From NCBI GenBank assembly GCA_024682255.1, contig GCA_024682255.1_4716.1: 64,000 nucleotides of DNA; one strand, 5' to 3'. The notes beneath the pieces were generated by a model. That model did not search any database. It was given only the letters and a program-made list of their open reading frames with translations, and was not told the DNA's origin. A program made the translations under genes and the position numbers. How positions within the stretch are numbered: position 1 is the first letter of the stretch; each line of letters starts with the position of its first letter. This document shows positions 19,476-55,344 of the stretch, piece by piece. This DNA comes from a phage.

Positions 19476-19493
19476 TCACCTAAGTAATATAGC
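19476..19493 (-). promoter_or_regulatory. putative phage early promoter (TATATTAC core, minus strand)
   Basis: Minus-strand GGCTATATTACTTAGGTG; same motif upstream of two other genes. Confidence 0.4.
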
Positions 19494-19509
19494 CGTGAAA
19501 AATGTTGGA

Positions 19510-20346
19510 TTAACGTGTTCTCCTATCCCGATGCGTATACGACTGAAGACCGATGTCCATATGCGGTAACGTTAGCGTCTGCCAGATCTGTCGTGCGTAG
19601 CGATCAAGCGTATGATCGTCAGTAACACAATCGACGGGTTCGATGAGGTGAGTCGTATACTGGCTTTTCACAGAGAAAGGTTCGTTGTTAGCTGTATCTC
19701 CTAATCCGCTTTTCACCGTGAAGACAAGACGTGTGACTATCATCGCCTTATGTTGCTGTTCATTGTAACGAAGGCTGCGGTATACGGCATAGCTCCCTCC
19801 TTTTAAGCTTCGGGTATAACGAAGGTCGGAGGTCGTCTCGGAAATCTGATACAGCATCCAGTCTAACGTATCTCGCCAGTACACATCATCCACATCAGGA
19901 ACCGTGATACCGTACCGCGTAGGCAGCAATTCTAAAAGCAATTTATAAAGTCCGCGACGTAAGCCATGCTCTTCAGTTTCCGATAAACCGTTTCCAACGT
20001 AACGTGAAATACGCGTACGTAAATACGTACGGATGAACATATTCGCCATCAGTGTTTTCACTCTGCTACTGGTATCCTCAAAGCGATCAACGCTGAAACT
20101 CGTTTCAATCAACCGTCCATTAAAATACAATGCAGCAACATACATCGCATTATTGCTATCTCGTTCAATGTTTAAACGACCGCAGATATTGGCTGCGTCG
20201 TTCATGGTAAATTCTAATTTATCGTGTTCGATACGATAGATAATATCCTCTTGGGTTGCCAGGCTCGCAATGCGACGATAGCCTGGAGAAGTACGTTTTA
20301 CACTCATGATTGTCCTCGTTTTCAATTTTAAGATTGCATGCGGCAT
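19510..20346 (-). CDS. hypothetical protein (278 aa)
   Basis: ORF in minus-strand array. Confidence 0.5.
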   Translation of the reverse strand: MPHAILKLKTRTIMSVKRTSPGYRRIASLATQEDIIYRIEHDKLEFTMNDAANICGRLNIERDSNNAMYVAALYFNGRLIETSFSVDRFEDTSSRVKTLMANMFIRTYLRTRISRYVGNGLSETEEHGLRRGLYKLLLELLPTRYGITVPDVDDVYWRDTLDWMLYQISETTSDLRYTRSLKGGSYAVYRSLRYNEQQHKAMIVTRLVFTVKSGLGDTANNEPFSVKSQYTTHLIEPVDCVTDDHTLDRYARQIWQTLTLPHMDIGLQSYTHRDRRTR

Positions 20347-20389
20347 AAACCCTCCCCGCCTTATGCAGGGAGGGTAGCCATTAAATGGA

Positions 20390-21028
20390 TTAACCTAATT
20401 TACCACCAGCGATGTTGGTGAAATCTTCGCCATCAGGAACTTGCAGTAGAATACGTGCCATGTCCCAGTTGGTTAATGTAATTGCTTTATCATCGATACT
20501 CAGTTCTGGTAGGTCGAGTTCATGATCATCAAACTCGTAAGAAATACTCCATGTTTCATCTGTTTTAGGATCGGTTATCAACACACCGTCTGTTACACGC
20601 ATGTAGTCCGGATGCAGTTCATTACTGAACGTGCTGAACGGATCGGTGTAACATTCAGCATACCCCTCGATCTGCTGACGCTGTGCCTTCGTACGTAATT
20701 CAGGGCACGCCATGATCAGTTGTCGAGATATGCCGTTTGCAGCACGGAAGTCTTCCACGGTGTTACATGGCATGACCACATCGTCATGGAAGATGTTCTC
20801 CGATTGTCTCAACAGCGTCTTACGGAGTTCAGCATAGTTTATCTGATTGAACGCATCGAACGTTGCTAACGATTCAGCGTAAAAATGCTTTACGTGTTCG
20901 CTTGCGCCGCCGAGGCTATTCATCAGCTTGTGGCCGTACTCCATGAAGCTTTTATCGAGACCGGAGGACATTTCTCCGAACCTCAGTGCACGATAACTGT
21001 CTCGTCCACCTGTAAATATTTGCGCCAT
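20390..21028 (-). CDS. hypothetical protein (212 aa)
   Basis: ORF 15 nt downstream of beta-prime exon 3. Confidence 0.5.
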   Translation of the reverse strand: MAQIFTGGRDSYRALRFGEMSSGLDKSFMEYGHKLMNSLGGASEHVKHFYAESLATFDAFNQINYAELRKTLLRQSENIFHDDVVMPCNTVEDFRAANGISRQLIMACPELRTKAQRQQIEGYAECYTDPFSTFSNELHPDYMRVTDGVLITDPKTDETWSISYEFDDHELDLPELSIDDKAITLTNWDMARILLQVPDGEDFTNIAGGKLG

Positions 21029-21043
21029 TACAGGCGTCCTCCT

Positions 21044-21268
21044 TTAGCAATGGTTGTTAGTTGCTTCTATTTCGTCAAGATACGGTTCTACGTCATCGCC
21101 CTCCACGAATTCGTTGAACCAACAGTCAATGGTAGAAATAACCGGTGACTGGTGTTCACATTTCTTAGATACCTTAAAAGGTACGTTATTATCCATCATA
21201 CCGAGTTCGGGTCGAAAACGCCCGAAATGTTTCGCAGTCCAAATGTCTGGGACGATATGGTTGTTCAT
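21044..21268 (-). CDS. RNA polymerase beta-prime N-terminal subunit, exon 3 (MNNHIVP...; 74 codons)
   Basis: MNNHIVPDIW...GMMDNN aligns with the segment immediately after the catalytic DGD in beta-prime (E. coli DGDQMAVHVPL...LMMSTNN; Rpb1 DGDEMNLHVP). Frame is closed by TAG 3 codons upstream of the annotated ATG, so it cannot be contiguous with exon 1. Proposed 3' splice site after G21269; alternative after G21281. Confidence 0.55.
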   Translation of the reverse strand: MNNHIVPDIWTAKHFGRFRPELGMMDNNVPFKVSKKCEHQSPVISTIDCWFNEFVEGDDVEPYLDEIEATNNHC

Positions 21269-21623
21269 CGTGGTGTTCAGCATGAGTCGCTACCTCATAC
21301 CCGCAGCTTTACCTGCAGCTTCCGGTGTTACCGGAATGTCCAGAATACATCTTATCCATATTCCAAATGGAACGTAGGACTTCCGCGCTGGATCTCGCTT
21401 GAGACCACGTATTCGTTGAACGTTCTCCTGAACGGAGCTTCGCTGCTGATCGAACATTGTCACGTACGGTAGGCGTCCCCGAAGGGATTGTCATTGAAGC
21501 CGCGTACATCCGCTACCTTGTTTCTACCTTATCGGTTCCTCTTACGAGGCGTAGCGGCCTTAGCCCTTCCCAGCAATTCACGGAATCCAAGCTCTTCCTT
21601 TCGGAAGGCAGGGCCTATGATTA
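21269..21623 (-). ncRNA. group I intron B (ORF-less, about 355 nt) in beta-prime gene
   Basis: Minus-strand core elements in canonical order: P GAATTGCTGGGAAG (21566-21579), Q GATCAGCAGCGAAGC (21437-21451; P4 TTGCTG/CAGCAG), R GTTCAACGAATACG (21408-21421), S AAGATGTATTCTGG (21340-21353; P7 GAATAC/GTATTC); ends in G. Its 5' guide (P1) pairing was not identified, so boundaries are provisional. Confidence 0.5.
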
Positions 21624-21636
21624 AGCGTCACCGTCG
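21624..21636 (-). CDS. RNA polymerase beta-prime N-terminal subunit, 13-nt mini-exon encoding (F)DGDA
   Basis: Minus-strand cgacggtgacgct lies 8 nt after the HNH stop; first 6 nt CGACGG pair with intron A guide CCGTCG (P10); joined to exon 1 it restores YNADF-DGD; genomic continuation is GCT TAA (stop), so a second splice is required. Confidence 0.5.
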
Positions 21637-23051
21637 CTGTAGTTTAATTTGGTCGAACGTATTCCAATTTCAATCCATGCCAATTACCGCCTTTACTAAT
21701 AGCGGTACTTATCGTAGTCGGATGTACTTTATGTTCTTCAGCAAGGGCGAATCTATCAGGATAGACTTTATGTGTACCATCCTCAAACACCACCTTTACT
21801 GGGAACCTTTGTAATCCACCAGTTTTTGGTCTAGGCTCTTTAGGAATATATTTACACTCGTTCACATCACCAGGATAATTCCTTGTCCACCATGCTTTCC
21901 AACCGTTTCTGGAAAACGTCTTATCTCCATGACATAAGCTATGGCTTAATGTCGCATAACTCACTCCCGCCATTGTTGCCGCCATTACGGTACTTTCCAT
22001 GTGGTACTTGTCTCCATCGGGCGATATTAAAACCAGCCCGCCGTAAATAACATACGACTTACCGACGTCTTCGGATGTGAAACCAACAAATTCCATTCCA
22101 TGGGTAGCCGCATCGTAATACTTCATCAACGGCCATTGTCGTGTTGTACGGAACCATTTTGAAATCTGGGTGTGTGGGATACCGTAACACTTGGCTGCAT
22201 CACGCATGCTGTAATGTTCGGTTATCTCACCAGTTCTCAAATCCTTTATCCATACGGTTTTAGCTTTCCAGTTCAAGCCGGTACGATAGGCATGGTACGT
22301 ATTTTGGGATTGACTTGTCCATTCAAGATTATCCAGGCGGTTGTTATCTTTAACTCCATCAAGATGGTTACCTACTAACATTGATCCCTCAGGAAGCATA
22401 GGTTTTTCACGAAAGGTTGATAGAACAACATGATGAGCTGCTATATCTCTACCTTCATGTCTAACCCTTACATATCCGAATATGTTAGTTTTTCCTACTT
22501 CCTCTCCAGTATAGGCATCTATAATGACACCCTCCTCGGAAGCGGCAAGTCCTGGATAATCTTTACAGTGGTAAAATCCTGGGAATTTTGTCTCTCTAAG
22601 TTTCATCTTCTCTCCGTTATCGGCCAACAGAGAGAAAACGTTCCTCGGAGGCCGACGTTTTCAAATTAAACTATGTTATCGACTATATCTTCATCCTCAT
22701 TGCGAGGAGACTCTCGTTTGGGTTTGTGTTTAACAAAGCCTACTCTACTCAACATCGCGTCTTTCGATAGTCTGTGAGCACACATCTTAACGAATATTCG
22801 TAGATTCCTACAGGCAGGTGAATATTCTTGTTGAGATGCTTCGCTGCGGATTATTCCCGTCCTACCTCTTTTACCATACCCAGGTCATTACGCTGGCCCT
22901 CATCTATGTCACCATGATGAGTTGGTGTGTAGTCCGATTACAGAAACTTCCCGTCAATTAGAGAGTTTTAACTATGCTCCTGTTACCAGGAACCCGACTC
23001 CGACGGCATCAATAAATCAACGTAAGTTATTGATTTAATTGAAGAAATTGG
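21637..23051 (-). mobile_element. group I intron A (about 1.4 kb) carrying an HNH homing endonuclease gene, inserted in the beta-prime NADFDGD codons
   Basis: Minus strand: guide CCGTCG-GAGTCGG (23006-22994) pairs with exon 1 end CCGACTT (P1, U-G at splice site) and exon 2 start CGACGG (P10); P2 hairpin TCCTGGTAACAGGA; P TAATTGACGGGAAG (22947-22960); Q AATCCGCAGC (22843-22852; P4 with bulged A); R GCTCACAGACTAT (22767-22779); S AAGATATAGTC (22681-22691; P7 GACTA/TAGTC); HEG in 3' extension; terminal G at 21637. Confidence 0.8.
21644..22627 (-). CDS. HNH homing endonuclease (intron-encoded)
   Basis: 327-aa ORF; HNH motif HHVVL...VGNHLDGVKDNNRLDNLEW; sits between intron A core and 3' splice site; annotated start is TTG, first ATG 21 nt downstream (MKLRETK...). 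Confidence 0.8.
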   Translation of the reverse strand: MADNGEKMKLRETKFPGFYHCKDYPGLAASEEGVIIDAYTGEEVGKTNIFGYVRVRHEGRDIAAHHVVLSTFREKPMLPEGSMLVGNHLDGVKDNNRLDNLEWTSQSQNTYHAYRTGLNWKAKTVWIKDLRTGEITEHYSMRDAAKCYGIPHTQISKWFRTTRQWPLMKYYDAATHGMEFVGFTSEDVGKSYVIYGGLVLISPDGDKYHMESTVMAATMAGVSYATLSHSLCHGDKTFSRNGWKAWWTRNYPGDVNECKYIPKEPRPKTGGLQRFPVKVVFEDGTHKVYPDRFALAEEHKVHPTTISTAISKGGNWHGLKLEYVRPN

Positions 23052-24307
23052 AAGTCGGCATTGTAGCCTTTCAAGATCATCACGCTTAACCCGATGGTGT
23101 TATCCTGCGGATCGCGTTTAACCTTGGTGATTTCAAGACATTGGTTACTGCTTCGGTCAAGTGATGGGTTTCGAACAAAGCCGCACACAATCCCATCGAA
23201 CGGTGTATCAGCAATAAGCTCATCATGCAGCTCACTCATCATCGGATGATAATTACGGACATGTTCCGCAACGAACGCACGTGCTGCTCTTGGTGAATAA
23301 CCACGATGGAATAACTTGGATTGGATATGTTCTTTATTGGTTAAAGTAAATGGCGCGTATGGGAAATGCAGATGATAATAACGATGGTTCGCTGTTATCG
23401 AACTGATTACGGTACGCGTGGTGAATGGATGTAATGTACCTAATATGTTTTTACGTGTGATACCTTTCTTCTTACCGATGAACTCATCGAAAATAGCTGC
23501 GTGGTATTGCAGCAGCTTCAATTGCACTTTCGCCATCCAGTTTTCTTTCTTTCTGGCGCTCAAAGGTGTTGTTGGATGATAGATGCTATTCAGTGTACCA
23601 ATAGCATCGATCGCACCTTCCATTTTGCTATCCGCATAACGACCGGTTGGCGTATTCTCGATAACGAACATCATGGCTGCAGGAAAGCTGATATACTGAC
23701 TGAAGAACTTATCACGATGGATACGGATGAATTCTCGTAGCGTGTCAACTTTCTCCGTGTTCTTCGGTCCACGTAACGTCGGTCCTTTATACAAGATCTC
23801 CATGATGCGATCGAAGTTCTGTATAAAGCTATTTACGCCGCGACGTATCCCGAATACATCGAATTGCTGCTCCAGATAGTTCTTGAGTTCGATGGGTCGT
23901 TTTACATTTGGACGGTAACTGGCATCAATGAGCCACGTCATCGTTTCAAAGCTTTTGATATTCAACTCGCTTGCCAGCACGAGATGGACCAACGGGTTAA
24001 TGAACGCATCGATTCCTTCAGGAACACGCGCCCACACCGTCGAACGAATCTCTTGTTCTGCTGGGTAGGTTACAACCGTTTTACAGTTCGGACACACCGT
24101 GCCGAGCAGCTCACCACGATTGTAGAAACCGCAACCACATTGTGGTGTGATATCCAACGTATCGCTGGAGTAAACACGGGTGATGAAACTGTTTAATTTC
24201 TTCTTCTCTTCGACGACTTTTGTATCGTAATCATTCAACAAAATCGGCGTAAAAGGAAGTTCTGCGAGCTGTCTATCGAAACTCACGATATCGAGCATGA
24301 TGGCCAT
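23052..24307 (-). CDS. RNA polymerase beta-prime N-terminal subunit, exon 1
   Basis: ATG at 24307 with AGGAGA RBS; Zn finger CGCGFYNRGELLGTVCPNCK (like beta-prime Cys70-88); RNPSLDRSSNQ ~ NRAPTLHRLGIQ; ORF runs ...MILKGYNADF then QFLQLNQ-stop, truncating the universal NADFDGD motif; exon taken to end after the TT of the Phe codon (23052). Confidence 0.75.
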
Positions 24308-24348
24308 GGGGTATCTCCTACAAATGAAAAAGAACGTTAGGACGTATA

Positions 24349-24372
24349 AGGGAGGGAGGTTGCCCTCCCTCC
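24349..24372 (-). terminator. hairpin between chimallin-like gene and beta-prime gene (terminator/attenuator)
   Basis: GGGAGGGAGG ... CCTCCCTCCC stem; T-rich stretch downstream on minus strand. Confidence 0.4.
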
Positions 24373-24399
24373 CGTCAGATTACATCGAACGTTCTTCCA

Positions 24400-26295
24400 T
24401 TAGAACAGGTTGAATGCCCCACCCATGTTGTTAACGCCAACATTCGGACGATCGCTACGTGCGTAGATGTTACCGGAGATGTTACCCAGACCACGAGCAC
24501 GTGCTGCCATGTTACCACGAACAGCGGTACCTGCCAGGTGCTGGATGTTCTCAGGACGGATGGTGAAGCCAGCATCAGCCGCAGCTTCGATCAGCGCCTG
24601 CAGTGCTAACGGATCGAAGTCGTAACGCATTGCCCAGCCGGTTTGTTCCCAGCTACCAGACAGAACACGATCAATGATTTCGTGACGAGCGACAACACGC
24701 TGAGACATCGTCATATCGGTACGGTCGAAGCTGTCTTCCCAAGCTTCTACGGTATCCGGGTTAGTGATGTTCATCATGTACAGATCGTCCATATCACGAA
24801 TATCGTGACGGTGACCATCCTGGTGGTTGTAGTAACCCAGCGGGATACGGTTACCGGTAGCGTAGACCAGCGGTTGGCCGTATTGATATTTCTTGCTGAA
24901 GCAACCCAGGGTAGTATCATCGAATGCACGGAAGAGGGCTTTGTAACCTTCGGAGATTTCTTGAACTTTACCGTCAACGTTGCCCGTATAGATCTTCTCA
25001 GCCGCCGGGATCATACGCAGCAGCCAGCTATACTCGCCTTCTTCCGGTACGTCGATAGAAATCAGCAGAGACGGATACAGAACCTGTTGCAGGAACTTGT
25101 AAATCTGCTCGTTGGTTTGCGTAGACAGATCCAGCGGTGCAGTCACTTCAGGATCCAGCACCATCGCCAGAGCACCTGGGTTATGCGGACCAATACCACG
25201 AGCCGCGTTGCTGATTAAAGACTGTGCCCATGCCATGCCGCTGTTCAGCGTAGCGATGGTACCAATCAGACCCAGCACGAAGCTGTTCGGTGTGAACGCA
25301 TCCAGCTCCAGCGGGTAAACGCTGGTCATCACGTAACGCGGCTGGTATTGTACAGTCGGCGGTACCGGATAGCCGTTAACCAGAACAGGGCCTTGGTTGA
25401 AGGTCGGGTTCTGCGGGCTGTAGGTCAGGTCAATGTAACCGGTGGTGGCGACCAGACGCTGTTGACTATCGTAATCGCTCATCGCTTGACGGATGCGGTT
25501 AGAGATAGTTACAGTGATGTCAGAACGCACAGGGTTACCAACAATATCGCTGTCCTGCATACCGCTGGTGTTGTACTGAACGCTGCTGATTGGCTGATCG
25601 CTTGCCATCATGCCCAGGTTGAACTGCGGCAGACCCAGTTTATCACCGAGACGGATTTCGATCGCGGTTTGGATTGCGTTATCTGCAGCAGACAGCAGGG
25701 TGGTTGCCAGATGCGCAGATTCAGCGGTGATTTCATTGGTCACCACAGCCAGACCAGCGATACGAACAGTACCGTTAGACTTACCGCCAATAGCTGAGTA
25801 CATTGCCGCCATGACTTCGTTGATGAACGTACCGTTCAGGTTATCAACCCAGGTACGCGGTACCAGAATGTTACCATGCGGACCTTGTTCTTCACGACGC
25901 GGCAGCGGAGCCAGACCAGCAACCAGCGGCAGGACGTAACCGAAGAAGTGGTTATGATCACCAACTTTTGCACCGCTCATAACAACCAGGGTCGGATACG
26001 GTACGCTGTACTGGTTCGGGTCAACCGCAACAAAGATGAAGTCGTCTTTGAACTGGGTATCTTCCAGATATTTCTCCATCAGACGACGGAGATTCAGTAC
26101 CTGCTCGGAGCCGGTATTACGGCTGATACGACGGCTCAGTGTACGGTTGATCGTACGCATCGTATGAGTTACTTTAGGACGGTCGGCAAAATCTGCAGCG
26201 GTTTCCAGCGCCTCATCAGCACGTTGTGCGGTGCGGGTTTCAGCTGCACGAATTTCTACATTATCGTTACCGTTATTACGTACGTCTAAGCCCAT
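24400..26295 (-). CDS. abundant early protein; candidate phage-nucleus shell protein (chimallin-like)
   Basis: 631 aa; ATG with AAGAGGA RBS; strongly biased codon usage (CGT/GGT/CTG/AAC) typical of highly expressed genes; TATATTAC early-promoter motif about 72 nt upstream; immediately upstream of beta-prime N gene. Assignment rests on size and context only. Confidence 0.45.
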   Translation of the reverse strand: MGLDVRNNGNDNVEIRAAETRTAQRADEALETAADFADRPKVTHTMRTINRTLSRRISRNTGSEQVLNLRRLMEKYLEDTQFKDDFIFVAVDPNQYSVPYPTLVVMSGAKVGDHNHFFGYVLPLVAGLAPLPRREEQGPHGNILVPRTWVDNLNGTFINEVMAAMYSAIGGKSNGTVRIAGLAVVTNEITAESAHLATTLLSAADNAIQTAIEIRLGDKLGLPQFNLGMMASDQPISSVQYNTSGMQDSDIVGNPVRSDITVTISNRIRQAMSDYDSQQRLVATTGYIDLTYSPQNPTFNQGPVLVNGYPVPPTVQYQPRYVMTSVYPLELDAFTPNSFVLGLIGTIATLNSGMAWAQSLISNAARGIGPHNPGALAMVLDPEVTAPLDLSTQTNEQIYKFLQQVLYPSLLISIDVPEEGEYSWLLRMIPAAEKIYTGNVDGKVQEISEGYKALFRAFDDTTLGCFSKKYQYGQPLVYATGNRIPLGYYNHQDGHRHDIRDMDDLYMMNITNPDTVEAWEDSFDRTDMTMSQRVVARHEIIDRVLSGSWEQTGWAMRYDFDPLALQALIEAAADAGFTIRPENIQHLAGTAVRGNMAARARGLGNISGNIYARSDRPNVGVNNMGGAFNLF

Positions 26296-26359
26296 TTGGG
26301 ATTCCTCTTTTCTTAAACTTTATTAAATGACGTCATTGAATCAGCTTCTACTCGCTCAT

Positions 26360-26377
26360 TCACCTAGGTAATATAAC
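26360..26377 (-). promoter_or_regulatory. putative phage early promoter (TATATTAC core) upstream of chimallin-like gene
   Basis: Minus-strand GGTTATATTACCTAGGTG about 72 nt upstream of ATG 26295. Confidence 0.45.
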
Positions 26378-26549
26378 CCTGAAATTTTTTTCAATATTGG
26401 TGTAACCACATTGAACGATATAAACCCCTAGGCGAACGCTGCCGAGAAGCAACATTCTTTCTACATATAATCAGGATATGTCTGTAAACTTTTACTTCTC
26501 TTATTGAGAGTAAAGTCATATCCGTTTACCATCTTCTTACGGAGTTCGT

Positions 26550-27644
26550 ATGTTTCGTGTTTTAAATAACCTCCCGCGAACATCATCGGGTGTGCAACCC
26601 GTCCCTCAGAATGACTATCTAATACGCGAAGTTCAAAGAAACCTACAGACAATCCAGAACCACTATCAAGGTTTTACCTTCGCGGTTCAGAGCGATCACA
26701 TCCTTGCGTTGCTGCTTGCACAGCTCCCTATGAGATACGACATCTCAGTACAAACTTACTACGACATGATTCTCGATCTTACCCCAGAATTGGGTAATCG
26801 TGTCAAGTTGACAACATCAAGATACGCGGGTAAGTTATTCGACGGTGCTTTCTATCCGGGATTGCACGAAGCTATTATTGCAACCGGTGAAAGTCGTCTT
26901 ATTTCACGTGACATTCTTGACAACTGGCGTAATTGGTCACCAGTTAGAATCGTGACGCATCCATACGCAAATCTTCGTTACATTCCTCTTCACCGAAAGC
27001 AGGTTGAAGATGGACGAGGTTTTGCGGTCATTATGGTTGATGTACCTTTATTAGCGCTACAGTATCGAATGTGGTCTTTGGTCATGGGACATAACGTCGA
27101 CGGCAAATGGGTGGTTAAAGAACCGGTTACAAGCTTCCTTGCGAGTTTTCCGTTGGTTAACGCATTATACTCACACAACGATGTTGTTATACGCAATCGT
27201 TGTTTGTGGGTATCTCCGGCTAAGAATCCACTCAAATCACCAATTTACGTTAACGACCTTGATAACGTATTCAGCCAAGTCGTTCTGTCCGTACAGCATC
27301 ATTTATTACGAAGAAGACGAAGCTACACCGATATGCTTAAACAGATGCCGAGTTTATACGGTGATCAGTACCAAGCAACCCGAATGGGCTACACCGTCGA
27401 TCTTCGACAAACCCGATGGGCAAGGGATCTGGGTTGTCTGTCGTTATGGCAACAACTCGTCACATTGCAAAACGTATCTGAAAGCGTCGGATTCAGCAGC
27501 CAAATCGATAATGACCTGTACCGTGCTGCCGACCGGAGTCTAAAAGAAGGTAACTGGGAATCCTCTCCATTACCTGGCGATTTAAGACGTGAAGTTATTG
27601 CGCAGGTTGCCGACCTCTTAAAAATTCTTCCTGCTGGTGCATAA
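26550..27644 (+). CDS. hypothetical protein (364 aa)
   Basis: Plus-strand ORF divergent from the chimallin-like gene. Confidence 0.5.
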   Translation: MFRVLNNLPRTSSGVQPVPQNDYLIREVQRNLQTIQNHYQGFTFAVQSDHILALLLAQLPMRYDISVQTYYDMILDLTPELGNRVKLTTSRYAGKLFDGAFYPGLHEAIIATGESRLISRDILDNWRNWSPVRIVTHPYANLRYIPLHRKQVEDGRGFAVIMVDVPLLALQYRMWSLVMGHNVDGKWVVKEPVTSFLASFPLVNALYSHNDVVIRNRCLWVSPAKNPLKSPIYVNDLDNVFSQVVLSVQHHLLRRRRSYTDMLKQMPSLYGDQYQATRMGYTVDLRQTRWARDLGCLSLWQQLVTLQNVSESVGFSSQIDNDLYRAADRSLKEGNWESSPLPGDLRREVIAQVADLLKILPAGA

Positions 27645-27710
27645 TCACCTCCCTCTTCCCTTGCATCCTCCCAACCCGTAAGGGAAGGGAGGATGGGGTG
27701 GTGGATTATG

Positions 27711-29864: not shown

Positions 29865-29929
29865 AAATCCTCCAAAAGTTATTTAGTCTGTCTACATCAT
29901 CTCGTATATCTGTTAAAAAAGAAGGACGG

Positions 29930-29957
29930 CATAAAAAAGAACCGATCCAGCCGAAGC
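29930..29957 (-). terminator. rho-independent terminator
   Basis: AACCGATC ... GATCGGTT stem followed on minus strand by CTTTTTTAT. Confidence 0.55.
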
Positions 29958-30576: not shown

Positions 30577-30591
30577 AATAGCATCCTTTAT

Positions 30592-34216: not shown

Positions 34217-34253
34217 AGCGCATCCCCATTCACTTGAACCTTTTGGTTCGGCA

Positions 34254-40998: not shown

Positions 40999-41103
40999 TG
41001 CATTGCCTTCCGCGAGTGTAATCAGGAAGGTAATGTAGGTTTATTTTAATCTCCATTTCGCGATGATATGACAGTCTTTATTACGTTTACCATCTGAGGG
41101 AGC

Positions 41104-42348: not shown

Positions 42349-42500
42349 CAACGTAACGGTAAAACTTTACTGACGTTGGTTATTATTTGAAGCATAGGGC
42401 TTCACCCAGGAGTACCATCCCTTTAAGTCGTTTGTCCTCTCCTGGTTAACTGTCGTTCTCTCACAGTGCTCGACAGACCAAAAATGCTCAGGCCTCATAG

Positions 42501-42529
42501 CCTCCTCTGGGAATGGAACCCAGAGGAGG
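42501..42529. terminator. bidirectional terminator between convergent genes
   Basis: CCTCCTCTGGG-AATGGAA-CCCAGAGGAGG stem-loop. Confidence 0.5.
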
Positions 42530-42541
42530 ACTATGTTTGCC

Positions 42542-42862
42542 TTAAAATTCAATGCGACCTTTTGCCGTAAATAATACACCTCTTTGCCAACAGAAAAAAT
42601 CCTCCGATTGAGCGCAGACACGAATACCCACATCGAATAGATGTTTTGTTCTGGCGCTTAAACAATCTGGATCTTCTACATACAACAGAAGACGTTGGCA
42701 TTTATTTTGAATGCGTTCGACAAGGATATTCTTATCGCTTAAAATAAAGTGCGCGTTATCTGTTAAGTTATCGTCGGTTTCCAGCTGCTTGACGAGTTTG
42801 ATTAAAATACGTAATTGCTCAAGTGTGTCATGATCAAGTGAATCACCCATGGCGTACCTCAA
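42542..42862 (-). CDS. hypothetical protein (106 aa)
   Basis: ORF in minus-strand array. Confidence 0.45.
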   Translation of the reverse strand: MRYAMGDSLDHDTLEQLRILIKLVKQLETDDNLTDNAHFILSDKNILVERIQNKCQRLLLYVEDPDCLSARTKHLFDVGIRVCAQSEDFFCWQRGVLFTAKGRIEF

Positions 42863-42935
42863 CGTTATACGTCGTTTGTATTATAATACGCTATCGTCTC
42901 CCCGCCTGTATTAACGGGGAGTCTGCAGACTACTC

Positions 42936-45167: not shown

Positions 45168-45217
45168 ATAAACTCCTCCGATGGAGGGTGCTCGGCACCC
45201 TCCATCGTTGTATTACC

Positions 45218-49548: not shown

Positions 49549-50476
49549 GGCATGCCTCCAGGAGGTATTTCATGTTGGCTTGGAAATCATTGACGTCACG
49601 CGCCATACGACGCTGATCCGCCATGAGACGAGCCAACACGGTATCACGGTAACCACGATCGTGGTCAGCAGCAGAGCATAAAAGAATAAATGTTGGTGGG
49701 TGCTCTAAAGCAATCCCGGCAACTTCTTTACTATAACCCCCAACCCAACTGTAAGCGGTGATTTCAAACAACAACGCCTGGGTTAACGTGTTCAAACGGG
49801 GACTAATATTACTTTCTTTTAACGCTGTTACAAAAGCTGCCATGTTAGGGATATAACCCAGGTTTTCGGTTACGATACCGATGCTCGCAAAATCGTAACG
49901 AAGCGTTGTCTGGATGGTGCGCACCATAGTTAGTCTTTCATTATTTGTAAGGCTATCTTTAAACAAGCAAAGATAATACCATGCTGTTATGATGGCAACA
50001 TCGCGACGTTGTTGAAGGTCCAGTCCTAAACGTTGTGTGATTTGTCCGCTAATCCAATCACAAAAGACACGCATCGGGATAGGGCCAAGACGTTCAAAAG
50101 GGCGTGTGCCCAAGGATTCCCATCCTACCTGAAGATACGCACGTGATTGAAGAAAGTTATATTCACGTTCGTTAACAACGGTAGTACGCGATCCTGGGCG
50201 TGAAGTATCTGTTGGGGTGCGCGCGTAGGCGCGTTGGTCGATAACAACGCGCTGTCCGTCCATCACTGTTTTAATGACCAATGGATGACCAAAAGAAGGG
50301 ATATCGTCCAACGTATTTTTGTTGCCGATGACTTCGAGAACGGGAGTGTTTACGCCACTTTCTTCACCGGGTGCACTTAACAATCCGCCGACGTAAGCAA
50401 CTTCGATAGCGGTTCGGATACGGTCAATGCCTTTTAGTTTTGTTCCAACAGTTGTGTCGTAAGGAGAGATGAACAT
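49529..50476 (-). CDS. hypothetical protein (315 aa)
   Basis: ORF in minus-strand array. Confidence 0.5.
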   Translation of the reverse strand: MFISPYDTTVGTKLKGIDRIRTAIEVAYVGGLLSAPGEESGVNTPVLEVIGNKNTLDDIPSFGHPLVIKTVMDGQRVVIDQRAYARTPTDTSRPGSRTTVVNEREYNFLQSRAYLQVGWESLGTRPFERLGPIPMRVFCDWISGQITQRLGLDLQQRRDVAIITAWYYLCLFKDSLTNNERLTMVRTIQTTLRYDFASIGIVTENLGYIPNMAAFVTALKESNISPRLNTLTQALLFEITAYSWVGGYSKEVAGIALEHPPTFILLCSAADHDRGYRDTVLARLMADQRRMARDVNDFQANMKYLLEACRGVERF

Positions 50477-50619
50477 ATGTAATTCCTTTATTACGGCATA
50501 TAAGAAAACGGGTTAAGCACACAGATTTACGCATAATTGTAATATTTTACGTTATGCCTATGACATTGTGTCACGTGTGCAATTATGTCATACAATTTCC
50601 TTAAATTAAGGAGAGTTCC

Positions 50620-52692
50620 ATGAGGCTTAAGAATAGCACGCCTCGCGCGATTTTTACGGGCTTTAAAGAGGGTCTTACCACGGATCCGGTTACAGCCCCA
50701 GAGATCACGCCCATTCACCTCCCGTATGTTTTCATTCAGGGTGGTCGTGGTAAAGAGGACACCTTGCTGTTAACAGGGGACGCCCTGTCTACAGTCTACG
50801 GTGAAGATATGCTGAACTACCGCAGTAAGTACGCTTCTCCAGCAACACTGATTGCTCGCCAGGCTGCTTCTACAGGTAGCGCGATCTTCACAAAACGTTT
50901 GGTTGCACCGGATGCAACGGCAGCACGCATCCGTATCGGTGTTGAAGTGGTCGCCGATAAACTGGTCGTTTACCAGCGTAACGCTGACGGGTCTTTCAAA
51001 AAGGACACCGGCGGCAACAAAATCCCTGACGGCGATAAAACCGTTGACGGGTTGAAAATGCGTTGGGTTGTTAACCACGACAAAGATGCCGAAACACCGA
51101 ATGCTTTCGGTAAAGATGAAGTGGTTCTCGGACAACTGACTGCAACAGGTGGTGCCCAGAGCAACTACTATCCTATTCTGGATGGATTGGTGAGCTGGCG
51201 TGGTGCTGACGGGGACAACATCGGCTTACGTCTGGAAGCACCGACCGCGCTGAGCAGTAACCCTACCCGTACCGATATTATCGAACGCATCGGTGCTTTC
51301 CTGTACCGCATTCAGTTCGTGGAACGCAAGTCTTCACGAACTGCGCCGACGGTCATTCGTACGATCGGCGGTATGGAACAAGAAACCTTCGCGTTGCAGG
51401 AAGGTGTTATCCAGCCTGATGACGAAACCGATCTGTCCTTCGGTAAAGTGGTCGTTGATGCCTACGAGTATAATGAAACGGGTAACACCCCAATCTTTGC
51501 TCCAATGGATCAGATGCATCTTTATCAGAAGAACATCGATGACGTCGTCAAGATGCTGTACGAATCTGAAAGCAAAGTTAACAACGATCTGTTAACCGAC
51601 GTCGAATTCGTCGAAGGTCAGATGAACATCTTCACCGGTGTCGATTACAACGGCATTCCGTATCAAACCATCGAAGTTCTCGATGCGGATCAGGGCGGTG
51701 CTATCTTCGACGGTACCAGCACCTTCTACGCGATCGATGGTAGCGACGGCGACGTCAGCTGGGATACCTTCGATGCGTTAGCGAAGCAGCAGTTCGAATC
51801 GTTCGGCAACATGGGCGAAGATCTGGAAGACATGGCTTTCTATCCGTTCTCTATCGTGTATGACATTGGTTACAAAGTCGACACGAAGAAAGCGATGGCA
51901 AACGTCTTGTCTCTGCGTCCGGATGTCATGATCATTGCGTCAACCCATACCTGGAAGGGTGTGGAACTGAATGTCGATGAAGAAAGCTCCATGGGCGCGA
52001 TGCTGCGTAACTACTATCGTCTGCATCCAGAAAGCGTGCTTTACAATACCCCAGCCTGTCGTGCTGCCGTATTCATGCAATACGGGGAGAGCATCGAAGC
52101 GCCAAGCCTGGGTAAAGTTCCGTTGACGCTGGAAGTTGCTAATAAACTCGCAACTTACATGGGTGCTTCGGATGGTGTTATCCGTGGTACTCGCATCGAT
52201 AACAACCCTGGTAACGTTGTCACAACGATGCGTAAAATCAACAAGACGTATCGTAACGCAACGGTCCGTGATCGTGATTGGGAAAACGGCTTGAACTATG
52301 TTCAGACCTACAACCGTAATTCCAACTTCTTCCCGGCTTGGGGCACGATCTACAATAACGACCGTTCGGTATGGCGTTCGTTGATCAACGTGATCATCGG
52401 TTGCGATCTGACTCGTGTCTGCTATCGTCTCTGGGCAGAAACCACCGGTACCACAGGAATGGATGAAGCGCTGTTCCTGAAACTGATGGGCGAACGCTTC
52501 CTGGAATACACCACGGGCCGTTACAACGACCATGTGACTGTTAAGGGGCGTTTCTACCTGGATAAAGAAGACGGCTATAACGGCTTCAGCTATCACGGCG
52601 ATATCAGCCTGATCGGCGATCCAGGCATGACCGTGGGTACGTTTACCATCACCGGGCTGCGTCGTAACACCGAAGCAGCAGAAGCGGCGTAA
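50620..52692 (+). CDS. putative tail sheath protein
   Basis: 690 aa; AAGGAGAG RBS; strong highly-expressed codon bias; immediately followed by a roughly 300-aa gene (sheath/tube arrangement) and a strong terminator. Assignment rests on size and context only. Confidence 0.5.
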   Translation: MRLKNSTPRAIFTGFKEGLTTDPVTAPEITPIHLPYVFIQGGRGKEDTLLLTGDALSTVYGEDMLNYRSKYASPATLIARQAASTGSAIFTKRLVAPDATAARIRIGVEVVADKLVVYQRNADGSFKKDTGGNKIPDGDKTVDGLKMRWVVNHDKDAETPNAFGKDEVVLGQLTATGGAQSNYYPILDGLVSWRGADGDNIGLRLEAPTALSSNPTRTDIIERIGAFLYRIQFVERKSSRTAPTVIRTIGGMEQETFALQEGVIQPDDETDLSFGKVVVDAYEYNETGNTPIFAPMDQMHLYQKNIDDVVKMLYESESKVNNDLLTDVEFVEGQMNIFTGVDYNGIPYQTIEVLDADQGGAIFDGTSTFYAIDGSDGDVSWDTFDALAKQQFESFGNMGEDLEDMAFYPFSIVYDIGYKVDTKKAMANVLSLRPDVMIIASTHTWKGVELNVDEESSMGAMLRNYYRLHPESVLYNTPACRAAVFMQYGESIEAPSLGKVPLTLEVANKLATYMGASDGVIRGTRIDNNPGNVVTTMRKINKTYRNATVRDRDWENGLNYVQTYNRNSNFFPAWGTIYNNDRSVWRSLINVIIGCDLTRVCYRLWAETTGTTGMDEALFLKLMGERFLEYTTGRYNDHVTVKGRFYLDKEDGYNGFSYHGDISLIGDPGMTVGTFTITGLRRNTEAAEAA

Positions 52693-52707
52693 TGAGAGGA
52701 GTCCATA

Positions 52708-53598
52708 ATGCGTCCTGATAATACCCTACTCGGTGAACAGGGTGTTGGTGCTCTTAGCAACGCGGCTATGGTCGATATTCGTGCGGGTGCCCAAAACGGG
52801 TACATCAGCAATATCGGTACGTACGTTGCTAACGCCAACTACATTCCGAACCAAATGTTCTGTCTCCTGCTGGAGGCACCACGTGGTTTCAACTATCTGC
52901 CTAACCCGGATGTACAGATTGGTTATCTGAAGGCGCTGGTAGAAGAGGTTGCGCATTCGATTACCGGTCTGCAACGCGGATTGGAAGTTGAATTCGTTAG
53001 CGTCCCGGTTTCTGGTTCCGGTGAAATCCAGGAAGAAGTCTCTGACGTTAAACGTCCTCGCTCTAACCCGACTTTCGGGATCTATGAGAAAGAAGGTCGT
53101 TCCGTTAGTTACTTCCTGGAACAATGGATCACGTATCTGTTGATGGATCCGGATGCCAAATATCCGATGTTGTCGTCTATCGTATCCACCGGTGGTCCAA
53201 CCGACCTGCTGGCGGATTATCGTAGCGCAACAATGCTGTTCGTTGAGCCAGACCGTCAACACAAGAAAGTGGTTAACGCCTGGCTGTGCACGAACATGAT
53301 GCCTCACGGTACCGGTGACTGGACATCACGTCGTAACAAGAACGATGCGCCAAACGTGGTAGAATTGAGCATTCAGTTCACCGCGTTAACACAGACCAAC
53401 TACGGCGTGCGTGCTTTTGCACAACGTCTGCTGGATAAGATGAACCTACTCAAAGTTAACCCGGATTTCCGTCCGGCTTATCTGAGCGACATCGATCCGG
53501 CTGTGGCGGCGCAGAAGGTTGGCTATACCTTCGACTTTGATAACAACGATACCTTTGAGGTACCGAATACTTATCAAAACGTAACACCTCGCGTGTAA
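52708..53598 (+). CDS. putative tail tube protein
   Basis: 296 aa; GAGAGGAG RBS 15 nt after sheath stop; same codon bias; followed by hairpin plus T-tract. Confidence 0.45.
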   Translation: MRPDNTLLGEQGVGALSNAAMVDIRAGAQNGYISNIGTYVANANYIPNQMFCLLLEAPRGFNYLPNPDVQIGYLKALVEEVAHSITGLQRGLEVEFVSVPVSGSGEIQEEVSDVKRPRSNPTFGIYEKEGRSVSYFLEQWITYLLMDPDAKYPMLSSIVSTGGPTDLLADYRSATMLFVEPDRQHKKVVNAWLCTNMMPHGTGDWTSRRNKNDAPNVVELSIQFTALTQTNYGVRAFAQRLLDKMNLLKVNPDFRPAYLSDIDPAVAAQKVGYTFDFDNNDTFEVPNTYQNVTPRV

Positions 53599-53624
53599 CG
53601 TAAAAAAAAAAGCATATTAACCTC

Positions 53625-53661
53625 CCTTCCTTCCCTAGCCGTCAAGGCCGGGGAAGGAAGG
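53625..53661. terminator. bidirectional rho-independent terminator after sheath/tube operon
   Basis: CCTTCCTTCCC ... GGGAAGGAAGG stem; TTTATGGTTTATTTA downstream on plus strand, T10 on minus strand. Confidence 0.6.
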
Positions 53662-53673
53662 TTTATGGTTTAT

Positions 53674-54213
53674 TTACTGTGTGTTCTTAGCTTCACGAAT
53701 GAAAATAACATCAGGATATTCTTGAGATTCAATGAATTCAGGATTACGATAACGACGAATATGACGCATCGTTGTACAAGCAAGTTTGTAAAGATGTTCC
53801 TCCTCACGTTGTGTTAATAACATCAGTTGCGCGTCTGGGATCACGAATGGGAGTCTTTCATTCACATATTCCCGAAGGTCATCGAGATCATCGTGATGAA
53901 TGCCCTCTGAGAGCTTATATAACGCTTCCAGCAATTCTAATCCACCGAACTGGTAACTTCCTATTGTCGTCTTAAACAATGCGCCAGAACGCGTGGTGGA
54001 TGCTCTATCGGCGACATCGTATTGTTCTAACATATATCCGTAGACCATGCTACGTCGATCCAGGGTATCCGTAACGAGATTACGCCACCGTTCCAATCTT
54101 TCGAGCGCTTTGTCGATAGAGTAAACGATCATGCCATGTTCATCCAACTCTTCCGCAATACCCAATAGTTCATTGTTGTTAGGTTTTGCTGCACCGATAA
54201 GAAAAACACTCAT
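53674..54213 (-). CDS. hypothetical protein (179 aa)
   Basis: ORF in minus-strand array. Confidence 0.45.
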   Translation of the reverse strand: MSVFLIGAAKPNNNELLGIAEELDEHGMIVYSIDKALERLERWRNLVTDTLDRRSMVYGYMLEQYDVADRASTTRSGALFKTTIGSYQFGGLELLEALYKLSEGIHHDDLDDLREYVNERLPFVIPDAQLMLLTQREEEHLYKLACTTMRHIRRYRNPEFIESQEYPDVIFIREAKNTQ

Positions 54214-54626
54214 TACTCAAACTCCTTATTCCAAAACTCGATTAATGAATCGAGCTGTTCCTTACTGGTTATCTCACCTCCCCTAACAAAATGAAATCGT
54301 TCTTGAATGGCGATCTTTTCCAGGATATCGGTAAGCAAATGACGGTGACAGAAATTTCCTGCAGGACAATAACACCCTAACACCACAACCGGATGGGAGA
54401 ATAAAGCCAACCATTCCGGTGTATGATCAACAAAGCTTTTGCGCATAAGCGTGTAGTAGCCTGCGGTATATTCATCCTCGGTTAACGTTTTTGATTTGAT
54501 TCCTGTAACAAGTTCCCATGAAGGTGCGAAGAGCGGGTTACCTGTTTTCACCGTCGTGTCCAGTAGGAACGCTCGTGTGTCTGAAAGCCAACGATACTTG
54601 GCTAATTGAAGGGTGTATAAAAACAC
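54213..54626 (-). CDS. hypothetical protein (137 aa)
   Basis: ORF in minus-strand array. Confidence 0.45.
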   Translation of the reverse strand: MFLYTLQLAKYRWLSDTRAFLLDTTVKTGNPLFAPSWELVTGIKSKTLTEDEYTAGYYTLMRKSFVDHTPEWLALFSHPVVVLGCYCPAGNFCHRHLLTDILEKIAIQERFHFVRGGEITSKEQLDSLIEFWNKEFE

Positions 54627-54729
54627 AGCGCTAACCCCAAAGGATAAAAATAAAACCTTGACATAACCACCACCGCAACCCCATACAGGGCTACGGTGGG
54701 GTCATACAGAGAGACGTGTTAAGTTACAA

Positions 54730-55209
54730 TCAGTCTTTCAGCAGCTCAGCTGCATACGCACTGATGTTGTCGCGAATATGCTTAACCTGAGTTGTTGGGA
54801 AAGATTTCTTATACGCGGTGGTCAGGCGTCCGTAAACCTGTTTCTTCTCGTTAGAGCCGAAACCAACTTCAGCGCTACGTTGAACCGTTGCAGACACAAC
54901 GTCTTTGCCCAGCGGCAGGGTTACAGAAACAACGTCAACCTGTTTGTTATCCGCCATGAACTGCGCGCCAACGCGGCCAACCGCCAGACCGTGAGCCAGA
55001 CCGATATCGGTGGTCAGTTTCTGTGCTTTTTCCAGGATTTCTTTTTCTTCCGGTGTTACCAGAGTACCCAGGAAATCACTGCCCAGCTTCTGGCTACCAG
55101 ATTCGTCCAGTTTAATACCAGCGGCGATTTTATCAGAAAGAGCCTGAACTTCCGGACGTACGTTAGAAGTGGTTTCAGTCGCTACGGTGGTTTCTACAGC
55201 TTCAGACAT
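54730..55209 (-). CDS. abundant small protein (159 aa), function unknown
   Basis: Strong highly-expressed codon bias; TATATTAC motif about 124 nt upstream. Confidence 0.5.
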   Translation of the reverse strand: MSEAVETTVATETTSNVRPEVQALSDKIAAGIKLDESGSQKLGSDFLGTLVTPEEKEILEKAQKLTTDIGLAHGLAVGRVGAQFMADNKQVDVVSVTLPLGKDVVSATVQRSAEVGFGSNEKKQVYGRLTTAYKKSFPTTQVKHIRDNISAYAAELLKD

Positions 55210-55325
55210 GTTAATACTCCAATTAGTTTTTTCGATCGATCAAAAGGATAAAATCAGAAGATTGTTTCTTCATAGGGAAAACACAAGTCGGTTAAGGTTT
55301 ACTTCTTAAACTCCTTGCGTTCTAT

Positions 55326-55344
55326 CAGTTAGGTAATATAGACC
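55326..55344 (-). promoter_or_regulatory. putative phage early promoter (TATATTAC core)
   Basis: Minus-strand GGTCTATATTACCTAACTG about 124 nt upstream of ATG 55209. Confidence 0.4.

What the first reader, a model, noticed from the sequence alone, without database searches (positions are those of the whole stretch)
19476..55344. Conserved early-promoter-like motif GG-YTATATTAC-YTAGGTG upstream of three genes
Near-identical 18-nt elements occur at 19476-19493, 26360-26377 and 55326-55344, each 70-125 nt upstream of a minus-strand start codon (membrane protein, chimallin-like, abundant 159-aa protein). The core TATATTAC matches what I recall as the phiKZ early promoter consensus, and the flanks form a short inverted repeat (AGGT...ACCT). 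A one-mismatch variant (TACATTAC) is at about 41017-41027.
Basis: partly seen in the sequence, partly recalled or inferred. Interest (0 to 1): 0.45.

Follow-up and report, generated by a model that had tools for sequence, protein, structure and literature searches.

The report
Early promoters of a Goslar-like phage
The repeated TATATTAC element is real and is almost certainly the start signal read by the RNA polymerase that this Goslar-like giant E. coli phage injects with its DNA; this promoter type is already known from phiKZ-type phages, so the finding is correct but ordinary.

Summary
The window is about 97% identical to Escherichia phage Goslar, a nucleus-forming jumbo phage (Chimalliviridae).

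**Observation.** It holds. TATATTAC occurs four times, always on the minus (coding) strand and always between genes.
- A fourth exact site at 14203-14210 was missed.
- The TACATTAC variant is at 41030-41037, not 41017-41027.

**Extent of the motif.** The element spans about 37 nt: TAAT..CAA, an A-tract, TTTCACG, N, C, TAYATTAC, YT, N3, TGA. Goslar has 13 such sites, all on the minus strand and all 25-205 nt upstream of a same-strand start codon.

**Support for the promoter reading.**
- A matrix trained only on Goslar sites outside the window-homologous region recovers the four window sites above every shuffle.
- The same element, with an invariant T-G six to seven nt after the core, precedes the chimallin gene in seven distant phage genera.
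- Published TSS mapping in phiKZ, phiR1-37 and AR9 puts +1 at that G.

**Rejected.** A sigma-70 promoter, an N4-type hairpin promoter and the proposed inverted repeat are not supported.

**Verdict.** These are virion-RNA-polymerase early promoters, a new member of a known kind. The transcription start sites are inferred, not measured.

The parts
26360..26396 (-). Early promoter upstream of chmA. Core TATATTAC at 26375-26368. Upstream are ATATTG, an A7 tract and TTTCAGGGT. The predicted +1 is G at 26361, giving a 66-nt leader to the ATG at 26295.
   Evidence: Sequence read. Goslar-trained matrix 37.2 bits. phiKZ-trained matrix 34.0 bits, the top hit in the window. 18 of 22 upstream bases are identical to the phiKZ chmA promoter, and the core starts 80 nt from the ATG in both phages.
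19476..19512 (-). Early promoter upstream of the gp182-like single-pass membrane protein gene. Core at 19491-19484. Predicted +1 is G at 19477, giving an 87-nt leader.
   Evidence: 48.6 bits with the Goslar-trained matrix and 25.4 bits with the phiKZ-trained matrix. The only difference from Goslar falls at the non-conserved spacer position +12.
55325..55361 (-). Early promoter upstream of the gp214-like gene. Core at 55340-55333. Predicted +1 is G at 55326, giving a 117-nt leader. Its upstream half overlaps the last codons of the gp213-like ORF.
   Evidence: 31.9 bits and 27.9 bits.
14195..14231 (-). Core at 14210-14203. Predicted +1 is G at 14196, giving a 51-nt leader to the ATG at 14145.
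   Evidence: 33.1 bits with the Goslar-trained matrix, but only 12.2 bits with the phiKZ-trained matrix, which is within noise.
41022..41058 (-). Candidate weaker early promoter with core TACATTAC at 41037-41030 (AAACCTACATTACC, close to the phage EL consensus). Predicted +1 is G at 41023. It lies upstream of the gp225-like gene, whose ATG is at 40998 or 40971.
   Evidence: TACATTAC is the core in 4 strong Goslar sites, but this site lacks TTTCAC. It scores 16.9 bits, below the largest shuffle value of 26.0.
5039..5075 (-). Weak, doubtful candidate (TACATAAC-CTAAGG-G) upstream of the nvRNAP subunit gene gp165-like (2945-4951).
   Evidence: 18.7 bits and 22.3 bits in the Goslar scan. It lacks the invariant T before the G. 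Treated as unproven.
24400..26295 (-). chmA (chimallin, the nuclear shell protein), first gene behind the 26375 promoter.
   Evidence: Pfam PF25677 at 3e-28 and phrog_4795 at 2e-54. 97.6% identical to Goslar gp246.
23027..24307 (-). Non-virion RNA polymerase beta-prime subunit exon (gp247-like), next gene downstream of chmA on the same strand.
   Evidence: phrog_2987 at 1e-117. Goslar annotation. The chmA-then-RNAP gene order is conserved in phiKZ, Eowyn, RAY, PhiPA3, RP12, Noxifer and LucasX.
18926..19390 (-). gp182-like 154-aa protein with one N-terminal hydrophobic helix. It is the only gene of this unit.
   Evidence: Translation and hydropathy. No Pfam or PHROG match.
18882..18917 (-). Strong terminator hairpin (16-bp stem followed by a T-run) that closes the gp182-like unit.
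   Evidence: RNA fold -31.3 kcal/mol.
54730..55209 (-). gp214-like 159-aa protein. In Goslar it is a high-copy virion-associated protein.
   Evidence: phrog_9746 at 1e-9. Goslar virion mass spectrometry in 10.64898/2026.04.21.720040.
12559..14145 (-). gp175-like 528-aa conserved chimallivirus protein of unknown function, first gene behind the 14210 promoter.
   Evidence: phrog_3209 at 4e-68. Goslar annotation.

Best explanation
These are early promoters of a Goslar-like chimallivirus. [quoted passage not shown] In Goslar its subunits are gp78, gp196, gp205, gp207 and gp210. The window carries the gp210 and gp207 homologues.

Each promoter is a roughly 37-bp double-stranded element on the coding strand. 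Relative to the predicted start it has four parts:
- a TAAT..CAA and A-tract block at about -35 to -24;
- TTTCACG at about -23 to -17;
- the -10-like core TAYATTAC at -14 to -7;
- a spacer YTnnn, then an invariant T(-1) G(+1) A(+2).

Transcription would start at that G (window 26361, 19477, 55326 and 14196; possibly 41023) and run leftward on the minus strand. The units would be:
- chmA followed by the nvRNAP beta-prime gene;
- the small membrane protein gene, which ends at a strong terminator;
- the gp214-215-216 group;
- the gp175-174-173 group.

This gives the phage host-independent expression of the proteins needed first, namely the nuclear shell and the second polymerase.

Shown here: the motif, its extent, its strand and position rules, its genome-wide set in Goslar, and its family-wide conservation.

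For: 1. Extended conservation. 13 Goslar sites share 20 or more informative positions from -21 to +16. They score 42-52 bits (one at 29) against a shuffle maximum of 19.4. All are on the minus strand. By Goslar's annotation, all lie 25-205 nt upstream of a same-strand start codon.
2. Out-of-sample test. A matrix from the 8 Goslar sites outside the window-homologous region recovers the 4 window sites at 31.9-48.6 bits, against a shuffle maximum of 26.0.
3. Cross-genus test. A matrix from 7 phiKZ TATATTAC sites ranks 26375, 55340 and 19491 as the top three in the window. All 7 phiKZ sites are on the coding strand, 42-80 nt before a start codon, with N5-T-G after the core.
4. Phylogenetic footprint. 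ChmA proteins are only about 24% identical. Even so, the A-tract, TTTnA, TATATTAC and N5-T-G precede chmA in phiKZ, Eowyn, RAY and Proteus phage 10. One-mismatch cores occur in PhiPA3, Noxifer and RP12.
5. Literature.
 - phiKZ early promoters carry TATATTAC, and 201phi2-1, OBP and N1M2 have the same extended pattern ending in GTG (PMC7058600).
 - dRNA-seq gives an early motif at 32 phiKZ transcription start sites, including PHIKZ054 (PMC8244752).
 - AR9 early promoters are AAATATATATTAT-(6N)-G+1, are chloramphenicol-independent, and the phiKZ and phiR1-37 start sites lie 6 nt after the consensus (PMC5312081).
 - Goslar chmA is transcribed at 5 min after infection from the vesicle-enclosed genome, with a start site displayed within 91 nt of the ATG (10.1101/2023.09.20.558163).
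6. Sigma-70-like sites are depleted in the window, and none overlaps a motif site.
Against: - No 5'-end data for this phage or for Goslar were available to me. The Goslar chmA start site is only in a figure, so +1 and the timing are inferred.
- Only 13 sites exist in Goslar, while 175 of 249 genes are reported as detected at 5 min. Either early units are very long or other early signals exist.
- gp214 behind the 55340 site is a high-copy virion protein, which one would naively expect to be late. It may be expressed continuously, as AR9 genes with dual promoters are.
- The 14210 site is weak with the phiKZ-trained matrix at 12.2 bits.
- The 41037 and 5054 sites fall within the range of shuffle maxima.
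- Comparison with Goslar gives no significant signal of constraint: 1 mismatch in 195 nt against 2.8 expected from the intergenic rate.
- AR9 shows that vRNAP can ignore a site with a single deviation, so sequence alone does not prove activity.
Confidence: 0.85

Rival explanations
1. The motif is a promoter, but it is read by the non-virion RNA polymerase (middle or late class), or by both polymerases, rather than by the injected vRNAP alone.
For: - gp214 behind the 55340 site is a high-copy virion protein.
- phiKZ PHIKZ054 carries an early and a middle promoter.
- AR9 has continuously expressed genes with dual promoters.
Against: - Published nvRNAP signals are quite different: phiKZ late TATG, phiKZ middle TACT preceded by an A-rich repeat, and AR9 AACA-N6-TA/G.
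- The motif here matches the early class position by position.
- It precedes chmA and an nvRNAP subunit gene, which must be made before nvRNAP exists.
Confidence: 0.07
2. It is a host sigma-70 promoter whose -10 hexamer is TATATT, used by E. coli RNA polymerase right after injection.
For: - TATATT differs from TATAAT at one position.
- The phage infects E. coli.
Against: - No sigma-70-type match (a -35 with a 16-18 nt spacer) overlaps any of the sites.
- Such matches are depleted in the window: 14 against 24.2 +/- 4.9, and 13 against 25.8 +/- 4.7.
- The conserved upstream block TTTCACG sits only 2 nt from the core.
- The same element is conserved in phages of Pseudomonas, Erwinia, Klebsiella, Proteus and Ralstonia.
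- Goslar early transcription takes place inside a vesicle together with vRNAP.
Confidence: 0.03
3. It is a binding site for a regulatory or DNA-handling protein, or a repeated recombination or mobile module, with no promoter function. Alternatively it is an N4-style DNA-hairpin promoter formed by the flanking inverted repeat.
For: - The element is long, about 37 nt.
- A TCAC...GTGA dyad flanks the core in 5 of 13 Goslar sites.
- Sites 166069 and 2567 share a 33-nt near-identical stretch.
Against: - Strict co-orientation with the downstream genes, and a position 25-205 nt before start codons.
- The dyad shows no compensatory changes, for example TCAC with ATGA at Goslar 15067.
- Single-strand folds are weak (-0.8 to -2.8 kcal/mol, z from -1.16 to +0.05) and differ at every site.
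- Homologous elements in phiKZ coincide with mapped transcription start sites.
Confidence: 0.04
4. The matches are chance occurrences of an AT-rich 8-mer.
For: The 8-mer alone is not enriched: 4 against 2.28 expected, and 19 of 100 shuffles reach 4.
Against:
- The fourth site (14210) exceeds every shuffle only with the Goslar-trained matrix.
Confidence: 0.01

Closest known systems
phiKZ early (vRNAP) promoters: 28 sites in Ceyssens et al. 2014 as cited in PMC8244752, refined to 32 TSS-linked sites in Wicke et al. (PMC8244752)
   Same: - The core TATATTAC is identical.
- Both have an A/T-rich block with TTTnA upstream.
- Both have T-G at the 6th and 7th bases after the core.
- Both sit on the coding strand tens of nt before start codons.
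- Both are present before chmA, 80 nt from the ATG in each phage.
   Different: - The Goslar-type upstream box is TTTCACG(g)C rather than TTTAA(A/G)nn.
- About a third of Goslar sites use TACATTAC.
- Goslar has only about 13 sites per 237 kb.
- The genome is much less AT-rich.
- No start-site mapping is available here for this lineage.
Predicted early promoters of 201phi2-1, OBP, N1M2 and EL (PMC7058600 Table 2)
   Same: - 201phi2-1 TTTRARR_BTATATTACDWHDGTG fits window site 19491 at every position.
- The EL consensus WTTTYAAACCTACATTATY resembles the 41037 variant AAATAAACCTACATTACC.
   Different: Those sets are bioinformatic predictions in Pseudomonas and Klebsiella phages. OBP and N1M2 use ATATTAT.
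Bacillus phage AR9 early promoters, AAATATATATTAT-(6N)-G+1 (PMC5312081)
   Same: - The same TATATTA(Y) core.
- The same 6-nt spacer to a G start.
- Reading by an injected multisubunit vRNAP without new protein synthesis.
   Different: - AR9 is not a chimallivirus and has uracil DNA.
- Its upstream half is AAATATA rather than an A-tract plus TTTCACG.
Bacterial sigma-70 extended -10 promoters
   Same: - An AT-rich -10-like element ending about 7 nt before the start.
- An upstream A/T tract reminiscent of an UP element.
   Different: - No TTGACA-type -35 at a 16-18 nt spacing.
- No sigma factor is known for vRNAP.
- The element is conserved across phages of unrelated hosts.
Coliphage N4 vRNAP hairpin promoters
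   Same: Both are read by an injected virion polymerase for the earliest genes.
   Different: N4 promoters are DNA hairpins read by a single-subunit enzyme. No stable or shared hairpin exists here.

Membership tests
Chimalliviridae / phiKZ-type vRNAP early promoter | Core octamer TATATTAC, or a close variant, on the coding strand | tested here: met
   There are 4 exact sites, all on the minus strand, plus a TACATTAC variant at 41030-41037.
Chimalliviridae / phiKZ-type vRNAP early promoter | A/T-rich or T-rich element immediately upstream of the core (upstream of about -19) | tested here: met
   An A-tract plus TTTCA/TTGA is present at all 4 strong sites. Position-wise counts are, and the phiKZ sites for comparison are.
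Chimalliviridae / phiKZ-type vRNAP early promoter | A conserved start nucleotide 6 nt downstream of the consensus (G at the 7th base after the core) | tested here: met
   This is met at the sequence level only. G is invariant in 13 of 13 Goslar sites, 7 of 7 phiKZ sites and 7 of 7 chmA promoters of other genera. The rule comes from PMC5312081.
Chimalliviridae / phiKZ-type vRNAP early promoter | Recognised by a model built from another member's promoters | tested here: met
   The phiKZ-trained matrix scores 26375 at 34.0, 55340 at 27.9 and 19491 at 25.4 bits, above the shuffle maximum of 19.6. Site 14210 fails at 12.2 bits.
Chimalliviridae / phiKZ-type vRNAP early promoter | Located in front of orthologous early genes (chmA followed by an nvRNAP subunit) in other members | tested here: met
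Chimalliviridae / phiKZ-type vRNAP early promoter | The phage encodes a packaged multisubunit vRNAP | tested here: met
   The window is collinear with Goslar gp205-gp210. All five vRNAP subunits were detected in Goslar virions (10.64898/2026.04.21.720040).
Chimalliviridae / phiKZ-type vRNAP early promoter | Primary 5' ends at the site within minutes of infection, independent of new protein synthesis and of host RNAP | not testable with these tools
   Only indirect support exists. Goslar chmA is transcribed at 5 min, with a start site displayed within 91 nt of the ATG. Supplementary tables are not held.
Sigma-70 promoter | A -35-like hexamer 16-18 nt upstream of a -10 hexamer | tested here: not met
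   No sigma-70-type hit overlaps any site.
N4-type hairpin promoter | A stable short DNA hairpin shared by the sites | tested here: not met
   Folds are -0.8 to -2.8 kcal/mol, with z from -1.16 to +0.05, and the structures differ. The AGGT/ACCT arms occur at one site only.

The most novel reading that the evidence does not exclude
The most novel reading not excluded is that the 13 sites are the complete vRNAP regulon of Goslar-type phages.

On that reading, a dozen long leftward units would account for the roughly 175 genes reported at 5 min after infection. One unit is headed by gp214, which Goslar virion mass spectrometry reports at more than 200 copies per virion. gp214 would then be both an immediate-early product and a packaged protein, possibly injected as well. 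It could be a candidate vRNAP or EPI-vesicle cofactor.

The promoter is almost unchanged between phages whose chimallins are only 24% identical. That would also predict that vRNAPs of different genera can read each other's early promoters.
Probability: 0.2. Interest if true: 0.45.

Novelty: new member of a known kind. Interest (0 to 1): 0.3.

Why it matters
Goslar is the E. coli model for nucleus-forming phages. The papers I could search describe its early transcription only at gene level, and none lists its promoters.

A base-resolution set of predicted vRNAP promoters and start sites has three uses:
- It gives immediate targets for 5'-end mapping.
- It provides early-expression cassettes for engineering Goslar, as the phiKZ consensus early promoter is already used in PMC12676376.
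- It defines which genes, such as chmA with an nvRNAP subunit gene, a small membrane protein and gp214, head an early unit.

It does not change the current picture of chimallivirus transcription.

Tried and rejected
1. Papers and data not held.
 - Ceyssens et al. 2014 (PMC4178840) is not held.
 - Supplementary start-site or expression tables of PMC8244752 and PMC10541120 are not held. No measured start-site coordinates could therefore be compared.
2. Constraint test against Goslar. There is 1 mismatch in 195 promoter nt.
 - This looks significant against the coding rate (P = 0.009).
 - It is not significant against the proper intergenic baseline of 1.4% (P = 0.23).
 - I dropped it as evidence.
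3. Relatives at intermediate distance. The IMG/VR scan with ChmA returned only relatives 97-98% identical, whose chmA upstream region is almost invariant. This was uninformative.
4. Inverted repeat or hairpin: rejected.
5. Sigma-70 reading: rejected.
6. Search for further sites.
 - I scanned with ATATTAC, ACATTAC and position matrices.
 - Nothing convincing turned up beyond 41037 and 5054.
7. Searches for a published Goslar promoter motif found none in the held library. This does not prove that none exists.
8. The E. coli complete-genome collection has no copy of this phage.

Full report
**Identity of the window.** A 6-kb probe is 97.2% identical to Escherichia phage vB_EcoM_Goslar (NC_048170.1, 237,307 bp). 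The whole window aligns collinearly with Goslar 146,584-210,099 at 93-97% identity, apart from two short unaligned stretches. Goslar is a nucleus-forming jumbo phage (Chimalliviridae). Almost all genes in the window lie on the minus strand.

**The observation.** On the minus strand the three reported sites read as follows:
- GGCTATATTACTTAGGTG at 19494-19477
- GGTTATATTACCTAGGTG at 26378-26361
- GGTCTATATTACCTAACTG at 55344-55326

An exact search finds a fourth TATATTAC at 14203-14210. It is also on the minus strand and intergenic, in front of the ATG at 14145. The TACATTAC variant is at 41030-41037, not 41017-41027.

The 8-mer by itself is not enriched: 4 found against 2.28 expected. The 12-mer YTATATTACYTA is enriched: 4 hits with up to one mismatch against 0.83 expected, and no shuffle of 100 reaches 4. 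In an unbiased count over 32 intergenic regions, TATATTAC is one of the two most widely shared 8-mers.

**True extent of the element.** I assembled the Goslar genome from five fetched stretches and scanned it.
- Ten exact TATATTAC sites exist, all on the minus strand. Eight share long flanks.
- Adding TACATTAC gives 13 sites with a common pattern.
- Numbering from the first T of the core, T at -21, A at -20 and A at -15 are conserved, the two A's in all 13 sites. An A-rich stretch follows, then T-9 T-8 T-7 C-6 A-5 C-4 G-3, C-1, TAYATTAC, Y9, T10, T14, G15 and A16.
- Twelve sites score 42-52 bits and one scores 29. The maximum in 20 shuffled genomes is 19.4.
- By Goslar's annotation, every site lies 25-205 nt upstream of a same-strand start codon. 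The genes are gp004, gp021, gp040, gp046/047, gp075, gp105, gp159, gp175, gp182, gp246 (ChmA), gp225, gp214 and gp200.

**Out-of-sample tests.**
- A matrix built only from the eight Goslar sites outside the window-homologous region scores the four window sites at 48.6, 37.2, 33.1 and 31.9 bits. The largest value in 100 shuffles is 26.0, and the mean of the shuffle maxima is 10.8.
- In the same scan, 41037 scores 16.9 and a further candidate at 5054 scores 18.7. Both fall within the range of chance maxima.
- A matrix built only from seven TATATTAC sites in the first 50 kb of phiKZ ranks 26375 (34.0), 55340 (27.9) and 19491 (25.4) as the top three hits in the window. The shuffle maximum is 19.6. 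Site 14210 reaches only 12.2.

**Family-wide conservation.** ChmA homologues outside the Goslar group are only about 22-30% identical. I fetched the chmA neighbourhood of eight phages.
- phiKZ, Eowyn, RAY and Proteus phage 10 carry an A-tract, TTTnA, then TATATTAC, then five bases, then T-G, 70-137 nt before the ATG.
- PhiPA3 and Noxifer have TATATCAC, and RP12 has CATATTAC, with the same T-G.
- No match was evident in LucasX.
- The phiKZ and Goslar-type chmA promoters share 18 of 22 upstream bases, and the core starts 80 nt from the ATG in both.
- In seven of the eight phages an RNA polymerase subunit gene follows chmA; in Proteus phage 10 the next gene is unannotated. The same order is seen here with gp247-like (23027-24307; phrog_2987, E = 1e-117).

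**What the literature says.**
- PMC7058600 Table 2 lists phiKZ TATATTAC, 201phi2-1 TTAWTAVAA_HYWTTTRARR_BTATATTACDWHDGTG, and related OBP, N1M2 and EL consensus sequences. Window site 19491 fits the 201phi2-1 pattern at every position.
- PMC8244752 (dRNA-seq) finds the early motif, an extended -10 with a T-rich element upstream of -19, at 32 phiKZ transcription start sites. PHIKZ054 has this motif at its primary start site.
- PMC5312081 defines AR9 early promoters as AAATATATATTAT-(6N)-G+1. It shows they fire without protein synthesis, and it states that the phiKZ and phiR1-37 start sites lie 6 nt after the consensus.
- Applying that rule here puts +1 on the invariant G15: window 26361, 19477, 55326, 14196 and possibly 41023.
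- For Goslar itself, RNA-seq shows chmA transcribed at 5 min from the vesicle-enclosed genome that also holds vRNAP. The figure showing the chmA start site begins 91 nt upstream of the ATG. The predicted +1 is 66 nt upstream of the ATG, so it falls inside that stretch. The exact published position was not available to me.
- The Goslar vRNAP subunits are gp78, gp196, gp205, gp207 and gp210.

**Rivals.**
- Sigma-70: no sigma-70-type match overlaps any site. Such matches are about half as frequent as in shuffles.
- Hairpin or inverted repeat: AGGT/ACCT exists only at 55340. A TCAC/GTGA dyad occurs in 5 of 13 Goslar sites without compensatory change. Single-strand folds are weak and differ from site to site.
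- nvRNAP class: the published middle and late signals are different. However, gp214 is a high-copy virion protein, so dual or continuous expression of that unit cannot be excluded.

**Limits.**
- No 5'-end data were available for this phage.
- Comparison with Goslar and with IMG/VR relatives is uninformative, because intergenic DNA is nearly invariant at this distance.
- Thirteen sites seem few for the 175 genes reported at 5 min.
- AR9 shows that one deviation from the consensus can silence a predicted site. The 41037 and 5054 sites therefore remain candidates only.

**Verdict.**
- This is a new member of a well-known kind and is of modest interest.

Noticed in passing
window 24350-24373; also 5693-5739, 9570-9634, 18882-18917, 20347-20389, 27645-27710, 45168-45217, 56249-56276: A family of G/C-rich intergenic hairpins whose stems are built from GGGAGGG/CCCTCCC, for example GGGAGGGAGG-GCAA-CCTCCCTCCC right after the chmA stop. 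RNA folds are -20 to -38 kcal/mol. CCCTCCCT ties with TATATTAC as the most widely shared intergenic 8-mer. Several hairpins lack a T-run. They are probably this phage's terminator or transcript-end hairpins.
   Followed up: partly
window 61749-62295 (intron at 61900-62266, minus strand): A group I intron (Rfam RF00028, 56.3 bits) sits inside the homologue of the vRNAP subunit gene gp207. It splits the gene into ORFs 60619-61749 and 62262-63962. Goslar has only 41 nt at this point, so this is an intron presence/absence difference between two phages about 97% identical.
   Followed up: partly
window 21639-23041: A second group I intron (22660-23041, minus strand, 54.8 bits) follows the nvRNAP beta-prime exon, as in Goslar. 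The adjacent 327-aa HNH endonuclease ORF (21644-22627; Pfam HNH_3) has no nucleotide match to Goslar's HNH gene, so the homing endonuclease has been replaced.
   Followed up: partly
whole window compared with Goslar: Intergenic DNA is more conserved than coding DNA between the two phages: 1.4% against 3.4% mismatches over 4,312 and 58,078 aligned nt. This suggests dense regulatory or RNA-structure content between genes.
   Followed up: no
window 13000-27500 and 40000-56500: Sigma-70-type promoter matches are about half as frequent as in dinucleotide shuffles: 14 against 24.2 +/- 4.9, and 13 against 25.8 +/- 4.7. This fits a genome that is not transcribed by host RNA polymerase, or that avoids it.
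   Followed up: no
window 54730-55209: The homologue of Goslar gp214 is reported at more than 200 copies per virion and has no known function. It sits directly behind an early-type promoter with an unusually long predicted leader of 117 nt.
   Followed up: no
Goslar 49725-49732 (L003), outside the window: A strong early-promoter match lies inside the annotated 62-aa ORF gp047 (49584-49772). The predicted start site is downstream of that ORF's start codon, so gp047 may be mis-annotated or start later.
   Followed up: no
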